DNA of 3,612 nucleotides from Escherichia coli (GTDB lineage Bacteria > Pseudomonadota > Gammaproteobacteria > Enterobacterales > Enterobacteriaceae), in NCBI RefSeq assembly GCF_003334255.1, contig NZ_QOWU01000118.1, one strand, 5' to 3'. How positions within the stretch are numbered: position 1 is the stretch's first letter; the number at the start of each line of letters is the position of its first letter. The translations under genes and the position numbers were made by a program. The notes beneath the pieces are model-generated. The model worked only from the letters and a program-made list of their open reading frames with translations, did no database searches and was not told the origin of the DNA. Positions 1 through 3,612 of the stretch are shown here, piece after piece.

Positions 1-101
1 TCTTCGTCAAAAACAACGGGGCGACCATCAAACAGCGTCGCCCCGTGTTCATGCTGCTCGAGTGCATCCAGCACTGCGGCACGAATGTCAGTGTGTTTCA
101 T
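1..101 (-). CDS. U: Tail terminator protein (lambda gpU-like), 5' portion only; continues beyond the start of the window
   Basis: Minus-strand ATG at 101-99 followed by an open frame to the window edge, encoding MKHTDIRAAVLDALEQHEHGATLFDGRPVVFDE, which matches the lambda gpU N-terminus as I recall it. The ATG overlaps the Z stop in the sequence ATGA. Confidence 0.85.
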   Translation of the reverse strand, partial: MKHTDIRAAVLDALEQHEHGATLFDGRPVVFDE

Positions 102-631
102 CGTTTTATTGCAATCCTCAGTTGTTGTTTCAGCGCGTATGCCAGTTCTTTAGGCAGGCGTTCACGCCGGATACGGTCAACATTCTCATCAAATGCCTGT
201 TTCAGTGGGGCCGCCATCGGGATTTTCACCACATCAATGGGGTAACGGTTTTTCCCGGCCACACGCTGCATGACATGCCAGCGACCATTTTTTAATCGCT
301 GAATAAATGCCCGCTGATACCGATGCTGACCGGCTTTAAGTATGCTGTTCGGGCGACGCCCCAGCATCCTGATCCCCAGCTTAATCACAGGGAGATCACC
401 GCGGTTAACGATAATTCTGGCATTCGGATTTCTGACCGTCGCCCGTTTCAGTCTGGACCGTTCCTTTACCAGTTTCCGTCTCACCCTGGTTTCCCGGGCA
501 ACCTGTGACGAAGACTGATTAATCGCCGTTGTGGCCACGCGGTTAATCGTCATTGCTGAAGCCGCCGGAATGGCGTTTTTACGAACCCGGCTCAGATTAT
601 CAATCGCCTGATCAAGCCCTTTTATCGCCAT
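98..631 (-). CDS. Z: Tail completion / head-tail joining protein (lambda gpZ-like), 177 aa
   Basis: Translation MAIKGL.QA..NLSR........A.AM.INRVA..AI.QS.SQVARET.VRRKLVKER.RLKRATV.NP.ARI.VNRGDLPVIKLG...FIQ.LKNGRWHVMQRVAGKNRYPIDVVKIPMA.PL resembles lambda gpZ. Position between FII and U. Its stop overlaps the U start (ATGA). Confidence 0.88.
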   Translation of the reverse strand: MAIKGLDQAIDNLSRVRKNAIPAASAMTINRVATTAINQSSSQVARETRVRRKLVKERSRLKRATVRNPNARIIVNRGDLPVIKLGIRMLGRRPNSILKAGQHRYQRAFIQRLKNGRWHVMQRVAGKNRYPIDVVKIPMAAPLKQAFDENVDRIRRERLPKELAYALKQQLRIAIKR

Positions 632-646
632 AATTTCACCCTGCGT

Positions 647-1000
647 TTATCGTCGCCGGTTAACAGCGGGTGGTTGCCCACGGTTGAGCCAGAGATAACA
701 GCTTCCCCCGTCATCCGGAGAAACACGATCCACCCAGAACATCTCGCCGTTAATGGTCAGCGTGTCACCACGCCGCACGGCACGCACCGTATCCGTCCGC
801 ACAAATAATGACGGGCTGCTTCCTTCAATACGGACCCCGCCACCGGCAAAACCCAGCGACTCCGGATCGTCAAAAACCCCCTGAACTTCGCCGCCACGTT
901 GTGCTCCGGAGGTGAACTGCGCACGGATCCCCATCACTTCAACGATCGTACTGTCCACCCCGGCGAGGGCAGCATCAAAGGCATTCTGAAAATCACGCAT
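647..1000 (-). CDS. FII: Head-tail joining / head completion protein (lambda gpFII-like), 117 aa
   Basis: Translation MRDFQNAFDAA...GVFDDPE...GGVRIEGSSPSLFVRTD.VR..RRGDTLTI....FWVDRVSPDDGGSCYLWL.RG.PPAVNRRR closely matches lambda gpFII as I recall it, at the same length (117 aa). Start overlaps the FI stop by 8 nt. Confidence 0.92.
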   Translation of the reverse strand: MRDFQNAFDAALAGVDSTIVEVMGIRAQFTSGAQRGGEVQGVFDDPESLGFAGGGVRIEGSSPSLFVRTDTVRAVRRGDTLTINGEMFWVDRVSPDDGGSCYLWLNRGQPPAVNRRR

Positions 1001-1376
1001 ATTCAGCCGTTCCGTGCTGTATCATGGCCGTTGCCAGTGATGATGGCACCAGAACACGCATACCCCGTAACGCCAGCTCAACGGGACGACCTGTCTCCGG
1101 GCAATACCCCATTACTTGCAGGCACTTCCGTACCCGGACGGCTTTAACATCATCCGGAGCATCCGTGTTGTTCAACTGCTCACCATCGTCTGTGTGATTT
1201 TGATCAGCCCCGCTCTCATCAGAGTGCATAATGCCCTCCGGGGAAACAGCAAGCTCCTCTTCCCACTCAGACACACGTTGAGCAATATCCGCAGCACTCC
1301 CCGACATATCCGCCTCGCGCCCCAGCAGGCCAGCCAGTTGACGAAGACGATTCAGATTTTCTTCTTTTGTTGCCAT
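993..1376 (-). CDS. FI: DNA-packaging / head assembly accessory protein (lambda gpFI-like), 127 aa; start placed at the ATG at 1376 rather than the track start at 1424
   Basis: ATG at 1376 has a perfect AGGAGG 5 nt upstream. The track's longer start at 1424 lies inside the terminator hairpin and has no ribosome-binding site. Position between E and FII, size near lambda FI (about 132 aa), and an acidic central linker fit gpFI. Direct sequence similarity to lambda FI was not verified. Confidence 0.72.
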   Translation of the reverse strand: MATKEENLNRLRQLAGLLGREADMSGSAADIAQRVSEWEEELAVSPEGIMHSDESGADQNHTDDGEQLNNTDAPDDVKAVRVRKCLQVMGYCPETGRPVELALRGMRVLVPSSLATAMIQHGTAEYA

Positions 1377-1381
1377 CTCAG

Positions 1382-1387
1382 CCTCCT
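1382..1387 (-). promoter_or_regulatory. Shine-Dalgarno (AGGAGG) for the FI-like gene
   Basis: Plus-strand cctcct at 1382-1387 is AGGAGG on the minus strand, 5 nt upstream of the ATG at 1376. Confidence 0.7.
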
Positions 1388-1390
1388 GTG

Positions 1391-2456: not shown

Positions 2457-2463
2457 AAATCAG

Positions 2464-2469
2464 TTCCTT
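2464..2469 (-). promoter_or_regulatory. Shine-Dalgarno (AAGGAA) for the E-like gene
   Basis: Plus-strand ttcctt at 2464-2469 is AAGGAA on the minus strand, 7 nt upstream of the ATG at 2456. Confidence 0.6.
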
Positions 2470-2513
2470 TCATTCAGAAATCAGTCAGGCCAACGCGGTG
2501 GCCTGATAACGTG

Positions 2514-2861
2514 TTACGGCAGCGCCGCGTGACTCAGGGCACTGCCGGTAAAGGCGTTGGCCTTTTTGTGTTCATCCACACTTTCAGGCCAGCGGATTGC
2601 CTCCGTCGCAAAGGTCCCCGACTTGTAATAGGTCAGCACCGCCTCTGTGCCTTCAAGCGGCAGTACCAGTATGCCAACCGCACTACCGGCTTTCTGTCCG
2701 TCCCAGACAACCAGTTTCCCGGTGGCTTCATCCAGCATCAGGGGCGTCAGTGCCGGTGTTGCCTGAGAAATCCCGCTGCTACCTGTGGCGGTATGAGCCG
2801 GATCATTACCGGCAAAAATACGTACTTCTGCACGTTGTTCAGTGATGGTTTTCGTTACCAT
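2514..2861 (-). CDS. D: Head decoration protein (lambda gpD-like), 115 aa
   Basis: Translation contains NDPAHTAT...TPLMLD...KLVVWDG...AVGIL...YKSGTF...AFTG, which I recognise as the conserved core of lambda gpD. Size and position (between Nu3 and E) agree. Confidence 0.88.
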   Translation of the reverse strand: MVTKTITEQRAEVRIFAGNDPAHTATGSSGISQATPALTPLMLDEATGKLVVWDGQKAGSAVGILVLPLEGTEAVLTYYKSGTFATEAIRWPESVDEHKKANAFTGSALSHAALP

Positions 2862-2897
2862 ATTGTAAAAACCTCATATTGATGGTCAGCACTGACT

Positions 2898-3500
2898 TCA
2901 TGGCATGGCCATGAGCATTTTCACGTCCGCATCACCGTCTGCCGACGTCTGTGACACGCCACCCCGCACCGCTGCCGGTGAATGATTCGCCATGAAATGT
3001 TCAAACAGGGCGGTTGTGGATGCAGAGACCGGTTCTGCTTTATCCGGCGATGAGGACAGAATGTCGCGGGCAGCCTCCACCGTCATTCCGGGAAACGCCG
3101 CCAGTTTTTCAGCCTGCGCCTCAGCCCCTTTTGCCTCATCCAGAGCCATAATCTGATCACGGAGTGAGGGTCCGGCATCCGCCTGCGGTGAAGCCGCCAG
3201 GATCGGGCGGGCTTTTTCCACCGTCATCTCCGGCATCGCCGCCAGCGTTGCCGCCAGTTGTTCACGACCTTTAGCCTCTTCACACGCCATAATGCGATCG
3301 GCTTCACTCTGCGTGGATGCCACCGGCTGCTGTGGTGCTGCCGCGGTCAGAATCGCCCGGGCCTGTTCAACGCTCATGCCCTGTTGTCCTGCCAGCATCG
3401 TGGCAAGGTGTTCACGTCCTTTCGCTTCCTGACACGTCAGGATCCCCATCACTCGCTGGTTCTCCTGCGCGGCAGCTTCCGTTGCAGTTAATTGCGGCAT
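2898..3500 (-). CDS. Nu3: Prohead scaffolding protein (lambda gpNu3-like), translated from an internal in-frame start nested in the C-like gene; 200 aa
   Basis: ATG at 3500-3498 preceded by a perfect AGGAGG (3510-3505) with a 4-nt spacer. Same frame and stop (TGA 2898-2900) as the C-like ORF. Length of 603 nt is close to what I recall for lambda Nu3 (about 606 nt). Product is Ala/Glu/Gln-rich with three internal repeats, typical of scaffold proteins. Confidence 0.8.
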   Translation of the reverse strand: MPQLTATEAAAQENQRVMGILTCQEAKGREHLATMLAGQQGMSVEQARAILTAAAPQQPVASTQSEADRIMACEEAKGREQLAATLAAMPEMTVEKARPILAASPQADAGPSLRDQIMALDEAKGAEAQAEKLAAFPGMTVEAARDILSSSPDKAEPVSASTTALFEHFMANHSPAAVRGGVSQTSADGDADVKMLMAMP

Positions 3501-3612
3501 AGTGCCTCCTGTATCATGAGTGTTCAGCGCCGCAACCATCACACTGATGGCATCCGACGCATTGATTAATTCATCCGCCAGCCCGGCCTCAATGCCGGAC
3601 TGACCTTCAAAA
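2898..3612 (-). CDS. C: Head maturation protease / scaffold fusion (lambda gpC-like), 3' portion only; reading frame is open to the window edge, so the 5' end lies beyond position 3612
   Basis: Minus-strand frame containing the 214-aa track ORF stays open with no stop from 3611 down to the TGA at 2898-2900 (upstream translation FEGQSGIEAGLADELINASDAISV...). The GTG at 3542 is just the first in-window start-like codon. Position immediately upstream of D, and sharing frame and stop with a nested Nu3-like ORF, matches the lambda C/Nu3 arrangement. Confidence 0.75.
   Translation of the reverse strand, partial: FEGQSGIEAGLADELINASDAISVMVAALNTHDTGGTMPQLTATEAAAQENQRVMGILTCQEAKGREHLATMLAGQQGMSVEQARAILTAAAPQQPVASTQSEADRIMACEEAKGREQLAATLAAMPEMTVEKARPILAASPQADAGPSLRDQIMALDEAKGAEAQAEKLAAFPGMTVEAARDILSSSPDKAEPVSASTTALFEHFMANHSPAAVRGGVSQTSADGDADVKMLMAMP
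3045..3443 (-). repeat. Three imperfect direct repeats of about 108 bp (3336-3443, 3186-3293, 3045-3152) inside the Nu3/C coding region, each encoding a ~36-aa motif
   Basis: Protein repeats ILTCQEAKGREHLATMLAGQQGMSVEQARAILTAAAP / IMACEEAKGREQLAATLAAMPEMTVEKARPILAASP / IMALDEAKGAEAQAEKLAAFPGMTVEAARDILSSSP. Also visible in the DNA, e.g. plus-strand ccaccgtcat(t/c)ccgg...cgccgccag and gttcacg(a/t)cctt motifs recurring at roughly 150-bp spacing. Confidence 0.8.
3505..3510 (-). promoter_or_regulatory. Shine-Dalgarno (AGGAGG) for the internal Nu3-like start
   Basis: Plus-strand cctcct at 3505-3510 is AGGAGG on the minus strand, 4 nt upstream of the ATG at 3500. Confidence 0.7.

What the first reader, a model, noticed from the sequence alone, without database searches (positions are those of the whole stretch)
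1..3612. Window is a canonical lambda-type head / head-tail joining module with no sign of an undescribed system
Every long ORF is on the minus strand and reads, in transcription order, C(partial)/Nu3 - D - E - FI - FII - Z - U(partial). That is exactly the lambda late-operon order, with similar gene sizes and intergenic distances. Coding density is near 100% and there is no cargo or accessory gene inserted. The proteins are clearly related to lambda but not identical, which is the usual mosaicism of lambdoid prophages. This is the honest baseline: an ordinary, well-understood region.
Basis: partly seen in the sequence, partly recalled or inferred. Interest (0 to 1): 0.2.

Follow-up and report, generated by a model that had tools for sequence, protein, structure and literature searches.

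The report
Ordinary phage-21-type lambdoid head genes
This window is an intact, ordinary piece of a lambda-family prophage of E. coli, the genes that build the phage head and join it to the tail. It is nearly identical to known phages and contains nothing new.

Summary
The minus strand carries, in order: the 3' end of the C-type head protease gene with a nested Nu3-type scaffold gene, then D, E, FI, FII, Z and the start of U. All are intact, and 95.6% of the window is coding. Every product matches its lambda counterpart (28-79% amino-acid identity, blastp) and the expected Pfam, PHROG or PDB entries.

The module is closer to phage 21 than to lambda itself. C/Nu3, SHP (the D homolog), the capsid protein and FII are 90-95% identical to phage 21. 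FI (44%), Z (67%) and U (82%) come from other lambdoid lineages, which is ordinary mosaicism.

The DNA is 98-98.6% identical and colinear with sequenced PhiR12 phages, and 98-99% identical to many E. coli prophages. In those relatives the flanks are terminase, W and portal upstream, and U-V-G-T-H-M-L-K-I-J downstream. There is no Rfam hit and no defence-family hit, plus-strand ORFs have no support, and no spacer exceeds 57 nt.

Minor points, all shared with known phages:
- The scaffold has three copies of a ~45-aa motif that lambda has once.
- Z is 15 aa shorter than lambda Z.
- Terminator-like hairpins follow D and E.

Verdict: already known, low interest.

The parts
2898..3612 (-). 3' end (last 237 codons) of the C-type head maturation protease/scaffold gene (S49 peptidase family in relatives). 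The frame is open to the window edge.
   Evidence: 98.7% identical to residues 265-501 of the 501-aa 'S49 family peptidase' of E. coli JNEC-KY179, and 90% to phage 21 gp5. Matches PHROG 53 'head maturation protease' at 3e-83. The catalytic domain lies outside the window.
2898..3500 (-). Nested in-frame Nu3-type scaffolding protein gene (200 aa). Contains three tandem ~45-aa helix-loop-helix-like repeat units.
   Evidence: ATG at 3500 is preceded by AGGAGG. 91.5% identical to phage 21 gp6, which is annotated at the equivalent internal start. Each of the three units aligns to the same lambda Nu3 segment, residues 111-176. No Pfam family.
2514..2861 (-). Head decoration protein (gpD / phage 21 SHP homolog), 115 aa.
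   Evidence: 95% identical to phage 21 SHP and 56% to lambda gpD. PDB 1TD3/1TD4 at 2.5e-68; lambda gpD entries 1VD0, 7VII and 1C5E at about 1e-28 to 1e-27. Pfam HDPD PF02924 at 2e-24.
1428..2456 (-). Major capsid protein (gpE homolog), 342 aa.
   Evidence: 95% identical to phage 21 gp7 and 62% to lambda gpE. PDB 7VI9 at 1.3e-134. Pfam Phage_cap_E PF03864 at 2e-66. Third-codon-position bias of substitutions.
993..1376 (-). DNA-packaging chaperone FI, 127 aa. This is the most divergent, mosaic gene of the module.
   Evidence: Pfam Packaging_FI PF14000 at 1.4e-13. PHROG 92 at 9e-47. 100% identical to KY179 gpFI, 44% to phage 21 FI and 28% to lambda FI. Start ATG is preceded by AGGAGG.
647..1000 (-). 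Head-tail joining / head closure protein FII, 117 aa.
   Evidence: 70% identical to lambda gpFII and 91% to phage 21. PDB 1K0H at 3.7e-51. NCBIfam NF049848 tail_join_FII scores 53 bits against a cutoff of 25. Pfam PF05354.
98..631 (-). Tail completion protein Z, 177 aa (a short allele).
   Evidence: Pfam Minor_tail_Z PF06763 at 8.6e-59. 68% identical to lambda gpZ. It is 15 aa shorter than lambda Z through two in-frame indels of 30 and 15 nt. The same 534-nt length occurs in PhiR12_2_star, the AR_0086 prophage and phage 2B8.
1..101 (-). First 33 codons of the tail terminator U gene. The start overlaps the Z stop (ATGA).
   Evidence: 79% identical to lambda gpU residues 1-33 and 100% to KY179 U. 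PHROG 37 'tail terminator' at 5e-10.
1400..1420 (-). GC-rich hairpin followed by a T-run in the E-FI spacer (terminator-like).
   Evidence: Terminator scan. RNA fold of -22.9 kcal/mol, z = -3.3. A hairpin at the same position but with a different stem sequence occurs in lambda, N15 and 2B8. It is annotated as a putative rho-independent terminator in the N15 record.
2485..2506 (-). Hairpin in the D-E spacer (terminator-like, with a weak T tail).
   Evidence: Terminator scan. RNA fold z = -2.25. Position-equivalent hairpins occur in lambda, N15, 2B8 and phage 21. Annotated in the N15 record.

Best explanation
The window is the central part of the late (virion structural) operon of a lambdoid siphophage or prophage of Escherichia coli. 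It is read right to left.

It encodes:
- the C-terminal part of the prohead protease gpC, with the nested scaffold Nu3;
- the trimeric decoration protein (gpD/SHP);
- the HK97-fold major capsid protein (gpE);
- the packaging chaperone FI;
- the head-closure/tail-attachment protein FII;
- the tail completion protein Z;
- the start of the tail terminator U.

By homology to lambda (established knowledge, not tested here), assembly would run as follows. Nu3 and C help gpE assemble a prohead on the portal, and are then degraded. DNA is packaged with help from FI. The shell expands and is stabilised by D/SHP trimers. W and FII close the portal and form the tail-docking site. Z and U complete the separately assembled tail.

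The head genes are of the phage 21 type. FI, Z and U are alleles from other lambdoid lineages, which is typical modular mosaicism.
For: - Gene order, sizes and overlaps are identical in kind to lambda and phage 21.
- All seven products are significantly similar to their lambda counterparts and more so to phage 21.
- PHROG functions match one to one.
- Pfam hits: HDPD, Phage_cap_E, Packaging_FI, Phage_attach, Minor_tail_Z.
- NCBIfam equivalog for FII.
- Solved structures of phage 21 SHP, lambda gpD, gpE and gpFII are hit at 1e-27 to 1e-134.
- The DNA is 98.6% identical and colinear over all 3612 nt with Escherichia phage PhiR12_2_star (host given as E. coli C). There are 51 nt and 9 aa differences, equal gene lengths and no internal stops.
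- 3980 of 5426 complete E. coli genomes hold a match, and 1543 of them cover at least 80% of the window.
- Flanks in relatives are terminase/W/portal upstream and U-V-G-T-H-M-L-K-I-J downstream.
- Third-position substitution bias confirms the reading frames are under purifying selection.
Against: Nothing substantive.
- The window's own flanks were not seen, only those of relatives at 98-99% identity.
- No record in the collections is identical. The best is 99.1%, and that one has a 42-nt insertion in Z.
- Function of the proteins is inferred from homology, not measured.
- NCBIfam has models only for FII, so five products gave no NCBIfam hit.
- The Nu3 part has no Pfam family.
Confidence: 0.97

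Rival explanations
1. The module belongs to a defective (cryptic) prophage remnant. The genes look intact but no longer make virions because other parts of the prophage are lost.
For: Most lambdoid prophages in E. coli genomes are defective to some degree (general knowledge). The window matches thousands of chromosomal sites, and its own flanks are unknown.
Against: All seven reading frames are intact, with the same lengths as in the sequenced phage PhiR12_2_star and only 9 aa differences. Substitutions are mostly synonymous. This rival concerns the status of the whole element. It does not change what the window encodes.
Confidence: 0.15
2. The window hides an extra element: a moron, an antisense gene, a small RNA or a defence/anti-defence gene embedded in or between the structural genes.
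For: - The plus strand has mechanical ORFs of up to 123 aa.
- A weak promoter-like site lies upstream of D.
- Two TTGYN6TTGY (CII-site-like) patterns lie on the plus strand, and the same sites are annotated in the phage 21 record.
- Hairpins lie in two spacers.
Against: - The largest spacer is 57 nt.
- Plus-strand ORFs hit no PHROG family.
- No Rfam match at E <= 1.
- No PADLOC match.
- One promoter-like site was found against 1.8 expected.
- The CII pattern count is not above chance: 34 of 200 shuffles reach it.
- The hairpins are the known post-D and post-E stem-loops, also annotated in N15.
- Substitutions follow the minus-strand codon phase.
Confidence: 0.02
3. The module is part of a phage satellite or a domesticated particle system (PICI-like, or a gene transfer agent) rather than a true phage.
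For: Some satellites and gene transfer agents carry capsid genes (general knowledge).
Against: Relatives at 98-99% identity lie in full-length 50-kb lambdoid phage genomes with their own terminase, portal, complete tail and lysis genes. The closest records are sequenced phages.
Confidence: 0.01

Closest known systems
Escherichia phage 21 head/neck genes 5, 6, shp, 7, FI, FII (OL657228 / M81255)
   Same: Same order and nesting. gp5/gp6 are 90-91.5% identical, SHP 95%, gp7 95% and FII 91%. DNA is 89% identical over 91% of the window. The three-unit Nu3-type scaffold architecture is shared. The D-E and E-FI spacer hairpins are nearly identical.
   Different: FI is only 44% identical, Z 67% and U 82%. 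Z is 15 aa shorter here. So the FI gene and the Z-U end come from different lambdoid lineages.
Bacteriophage lambda C/Nu3-D-E-FI-FII-Z-U (NC_001416, 4418-8947)
   Same: Identical gene order. C/Nu3 nesting, the Z/U ATGA overlap, similar sizes (D 110 vs 115 aa, E 341 vs 342, FI 132 vs 127, FII 117 vs 117) and hairpins after D and E.
   Different: - Identity is 28-79% aa.
- Lambda Nu3 has one copy of the ~45-aa motif plus a long N-terminal segment absent here; the window has three copies.
- FI and FII overlap by 8 nt here, against an 11-nt gap in lambda.
- Lambda Z is 192 aa, against 177 here.
Escherichia phages PhiR12_1/_2/_2_star/_4/_5 (PV340549-PV340554) and prophages such as E. coli AR_0086 and JNEC-KY179
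   Same: 98.0-99.1% DNA identity, colinear over the whole window, with the same gene lengths including the short Z in PhiR12_2_star and AR_0086.
   Different: 51 nt and 9 aa differences from PhiR12_2_star. KY179 carries a 42-nt in-frame insertion in Z.
Phage N15 genes 5-12 (AF064539)
   Same: Same module order. Stem-loops annotated as putative rho-independent terminators lie after the D and E homologs, at the same positions as the window's hairpins.
   Different: It has the lambda-type single-unit scaffold. It is a distant relative at the DNA level.

Membership tests
Lambda-type late-operon head / head-tail joining module | Colinear order C(Nu3 nested)-D-E-FI-FII-Z-U on one strand with short spacers or overlaps | tested here: met
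   ORF map and sequence. One-to-one best matches to lambda and phage 21 genes in the same order.
Lambda-type late-operon head / head-tail joining module | Flanked by terminase/W/portal upstream and V/G/T/H tail genes downstream | tested here: inconclusive
   Met in three colinear relatives at 98-99% identity. The window's own flanks are not available.
gpC/Nu3 protease-scaffold pair (S49 peptidase with nested scaffold) | In-frame internal start with a ribosome-binding site, giving a C-terminal scaffold protein | tested here: met
   AGGAGG lies 6 nt before ATG 3500, in the C frame. The equivalent start is annotated in phage 21. Actual translation from it was not measured.
gpC/Nu3 protease-scaffold pair (S49 peptidase with nested scaffold) | S49 serine-peptidase catalytic domain | not testable with these tools
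   The catalytic domain lies upstream of the window. Only the last 237 codons are present. They match PHROG 53 positions 264-583 and residues 265-501 of proteins annotated as S49 family peptidase.
Head decoration protein D / SHP (Pfam PF02924) | Sequence membership and similarity to solved gpD/SHP trimers | tested here: met
   PF02924 at 2.1e-24. PDB 1TD3 at 2.5e-68; lambda gpD entries 1VD0, 7VII and 1C5E at about 1e-28 to 1e-27.
Major capsid protein E (Pfam PF03864) | Full-length match to the gpE family and to the solved lambda capsid protein | tested here: met
   PF03864 at 1.9e-66 over model positions 1-329 of 329. PDB 7VI9 at 1.3e-134 over residues 1-341.
DNA packaging protein FI (Pfam PF14000) | Full-length profile match | tested here: met
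   PF14000 at 1.4e-13 over model positions 1-129 of 131. PHROG 92 at 9e-47. No PDB sequence hit at E <= 0.1.
Head-tail joining protein FII (NCBIfam NF049848, Pfam PF05354) | Score above the curated equivalog cutoff | tested here: met
   53.2 bits against a cutoff of 25. PF05354 at 3.2e-18. PDB 1K0H at 3.7e-51.
Minor tail protein Z (Pfam PF06763) | Full-length profile match | tested here: met
   PF06763 at 8.6e-59 over model positions 1-190 of 190. An internal 15-aa shortening relative to lambda is in frame.
Tail terminator U | Similarity to gpU | tested here: met
   Only 33 N-terminal residues are present. They are 79% identical to lambda gpU and match PHROG 37 at 5e-10.

The most novel reading that the evidence does not exclude
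The phage-21-type Nu3 scaffold carries three tandem copies of a ~45-aa helix-loop-helix-like motif that lambda, N15 and 2B8 carry once.

If this motif is the capsid-protein-binding element, a 21-type scaffold (and the C protease that shares it) could bind three gpE subunits per chain. That would give a different scaffold-to-shell stoichiometry or assembly pathway from lambda, despite a 62%-identical capsid protein.

Nothing here shows that the motif binds capsid protein. The repeat is present in phage 21 itself, whose sequence has long been public.
Probability: 0.1. Interest if true: 0.25.

Novelty: already known. Interest (0 to 1): 0.04.

Why it matters
It matters mainly as a clean negative. 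The window can be set aside as a well-understood structural module of a very common E. coli lambdoid prophage type, with a phage-21-like head.

It is useful only as a reference point for annotation: the nested Nu3 start, the FI start codon and the short Z allele. It is also one more example of mosaic joints at FI and between FII and Z.

Tried and rejected
- **Rfam:** scan of both strands at E <= 1 found nothing.
- **Tandem and dispersed DNA repeats:** none of note. The Nu3 protein repeats are too diverged to show at the DNA level.
- **Plus-strand ORFs:** eight ORFs of 77-123 aa against PHROGs gave no hits.
- **PADLOC defence models:** no hits.
- **Promoter scan:** 1 site against 1.8 expected, not meaningful.
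- **CII-site pattern** (annotated in the phage 21 record): 2 sites against 0.64 expected, and 34 of 200 shuffles reach that, so not significant.
- **NCBIfam:** a model exists only for FII, so the other products gave no hit.
- **PDB sequence search:** nothing for FI, Z or C/Nu3.
- **AlphaFold2 model of Nu3** from a 7-sequence alignment: low confidence (mean pLDDT 53, pTM 0.22). I used only the secondary-structure pattern and ran no fold search.
- **Literature searches** for the PhiR12 phages and for phage 21 Nu3 repeats returned nothing relevant. One paper id recalled from memory was not held.
- **Tool issue:** loci L002 and L003 did not appear in the Python sandbox. I passed their proteins in through an alignment instead.
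- **Not done:** I did not scan the large metagenome or genome collections for the window's exact source. Relatives at 98-99% identity already answer the context question.
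Full report
**1. What is in the window**

The six-frame ORF list and the reverse-complement read show a single run of minus-strand genes.
- A reading frame is open from the window edge (3611) to a stop at 2898.
- It is followed by ORFs at 2861-2514, 2456-1428, 1376-993, 1000-647 and 631-98, and by a start at 101 that runs off the window.
- Spacers are 36, 57, 51 and 15 nt. FI/FII overlap by 8 nt, and Z/U overlap as ATGA.
- Coding density is 95.6%, with 159 non-coding nt.
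- Good Shine-Dalgarno sequences precede the internal ATG at 3500 (AGGAGG) and the FI ATG at 1376 (AGGAGG). The FI start is therefore the ATG at 1376, not the upstream GTG at 1424 that the mechanical ORF list reports.

**2. Identity of each product**

blastp against proteins translated from lambda (NC_001416), phage 21 (OL657228) and the closest E. coli prophage gives one-to-one matches in the same order.

| Product | vs lambda | vs phage 21 |
|---|---|---|
| C-terminal part of C / Nu3 | ~50% over the repeat unit only | 90-91.5% (gp5/gp6) |
| D | 56% (gpD) | 95% (SHP) |
| E | 62% (gpE) | 95% (gp7) |
| FI | 28% | 44% |
| FII | 70% | 91% |
| Z | 68% | 67% |
| U (33 aa) | 79% | 82% |

Independent libraries agree.
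- PHROG functions: head maturation protease, head decoration, major head protein, DNA packaging chaperone FI, head closure Hc1, tail completion/Neck1 and tail terminator.
- Pfam: HDPD, Phage_cap_E, Packaging_FI, Phage_attach and Minor_tail_Z.
- The NCBIfam FII equivalog scores above its cutoff.
- Solved structures: phage 21 SHP (1TD3/1TD4, 2.5e-68), lambda gpD, lambda gpE (7VI9, 1.3e-134) and gpFII (1K0H, 3.7e-51).
- Substitutions against relatives concentrate at third codon positions of these frames: E against phage 21 is 13/9/76, and Z against lambda is 32/22/76. The frames are therefore real and under purifying selection.

**3. Context and relatives**
- Megablast against phage records finds the whole window, colinear, at 98.0-98.6% in five PhiR12 phages (hosts given as E. 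coli C or K-12). It is at ~89% in phage 21 and several 'Lambda_'-named isolates.
- Against 5,426 complete E. coli genomes, 3,980 hold a match and 1,543 cover at least 80% of it. The best is 99.1%.
- In JNEC-KY179, AR_0086 and PhiR12_2_star the neighbours are lysis genes, terminase small and large subunits, W and portal upstream, and U, V, G, T, H, M, L, K, I, J downstream.
- Against PhiR12_2_star the window differs at 51 nt and 9 amino acids. Gene lengths are identical and there are no internal stops.
- The window's own flanks were not available, so this point rests on relatives.

**4. How it works**

This is inferred from homology to lambda and is established knowledge, not tested here.
- gpC/Nu3 with gpE build the prohead on the portal.
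- The protease and scaffold are removed.
- FI assists terminase-prohead engagement during packaging.
- D/SHP trimers stabilise the expanded shell.
- FII, after W, forms the tail-docking surface.
- Z and U finish the tail.

**5. Search for anything hidden**
- No Rfam family at E <= 1 on either strand.
- No DNA tandem or notable dispersed repeats.
- Eight plus-strand ORFs (77-123 aa) have no PHROG match.
- No PADLOC hits.
- One promoter-like site against 1.8 expected.
- The TTGYN6TTGY 'CII site' pattern that the phage 21 record annotates inside gene 6 occurs twice here. That count is reached by 34 of 200 shuffles.
- No spacer could hold a gene.

**6. Minor features seen on the way**

All are shared with known phages.

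(a) The Nu3-type scaffold contains three tandem units of ~45 aa (Nu3 residues 13-57, 65-106 and 112-153).
- The consensus is roughly R-I-M-x-x-E-A-K-G-R-E...P-G-M-T-V-E-x-A-R-x-I-L.
- All three align to the single lambda Nu3 segment 111-176, with pairwise identity of 18-26 out of ~45.
- Lambda, N15 and 2B8 have one unit plus a vestigial 'DRLM' start of a second, and a long N-terminal segment absent here.
- tblastn finds 20 phage records with the three-unit form and 104 where only one unit matches.
- A low-confidence AlphaFold2 model (mean pLDDT 53) predicts each unit as a long helix, a short loop and a short helix, with disordered linkers between units.

(b) Z is 177 aa against 192 in lambda, through two in-frame indels (30 and 15 nt) in a basic loop. 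KY179 has a further 42-nt insertion elsewhere in the gene. The 534-nt allele also occurs in PhiR12_2_star, AR_0086 and phage 2B8.

(c) GC-rich hairpins lie in the D-E and E-FI spacers. The E-FI one has a T-run and folds at -22.9 kcal/mol, z = -3.3.
- Hairpins sit at the same positions in lambda, N15, 2B8 and phage 21.
- The stem sequences differ between the lambda-type and 21-type versions.
- The N15 record annotates them as putative rho-independent terminators.
- In a Q-antiterminated late operon they are presumably read through. Whether they stabilise upstream mRNA is not known to me.

(d) FI is the mosaic outlier. Its N-terminal ~40 residues are conserved with phage 21, while the middle and the C-terminal part are diverged.

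**7. Verdict**

The one refinement is that the head is of the phage 21 type rather than lambda proper, and the FI and Z-U segments come from other lambdoid lineages. Nothing in the window departs from known biology. Novelty: already known. Interest: low.

Noticed in passing
window 3042-3464 (minus strand; Nu3 residues 13-153): The Nu3-type scaffold has three tandem ~45-aa units of a motif that lambda, N15 and 2B8 carry once. Among phage records, 20 have the three-unit form and 104 match only one unit. A low-confidence model predicts each unit as helix-loop-helix. There is no DNA-level repeat and no Pfam family.
   Followed up: partly
window 98-631 (minus strand), indels near window 330-375: The Z allele is 15 aa shorter than lambda or phage 21 Z, through two in-frame indels (30 and 15 nt) in the basic central loop. 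The closest E. coli prophage (KY179) instead carries an extra 42-nt insertion further on. The short allele also occurs in PhiR12_2_star, AR_0086 and phage 2B8.
   Followed up: yes
window 1400-1420 and 2485-2506 (minus strand): Terminator-like GC hairpins lie directly after the E and D genes. Hairpins occur at the same positions in lambda, N15, 2B8 and phage 21, with different stem sequences between the lambda and 21 types. They are annotated as putative rho-independent terminators in the N15 record. Their role inside a Q-antiterminated operon is unclear to me.
   Followed up: partly
window 993-1376 (minus strand): FI is the mosaic outlier: 100% identical to the KY179 allele but only 44% to phage 21 FI, while the flanking E and FII are 95% and 91% identical to phage 21. 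The N-terminal ~40 residues are conserved, and the middle and the C-terminal part are diverged.
   Followed up: partly
window 2511-2882 and 1911-2240 (plus strand): Mechanical antisense ORFs of 123 and 109 aa lie opposite D and E. They have no PHROG match, and substitutions follow the minus-strand codon phase, so they are treated as spurious.
   Followed up: yes
window 3248-3261 and 3482-3495 (plus strand): Two TTGYN6TTGY patterns correspond to the 'CII binding sites' annotated inside gene 6 of the phage 21 record. The count is not above chance: 0.64 expected, and 34 of 200 shuffles reach 2.
   Followed up: yes
window 2862-2889 (minus strand): A weak sigma-70-like site (CTGACC, 16 nt, TACAAT; 9 of 12 matches) lies in the Nu3-D spacer. 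It is the only such site in the window, against 1.8 expected by chance.
   Followed up: no
whole window: No record in the phage collection or in 5,426 complete E. coli genomes is identical. The best are 99.1% (with an indel) and 98.6% colinear. The source is therefore probably a draft genome, a metagenome or a genome outside the collection.
   Followed up: no
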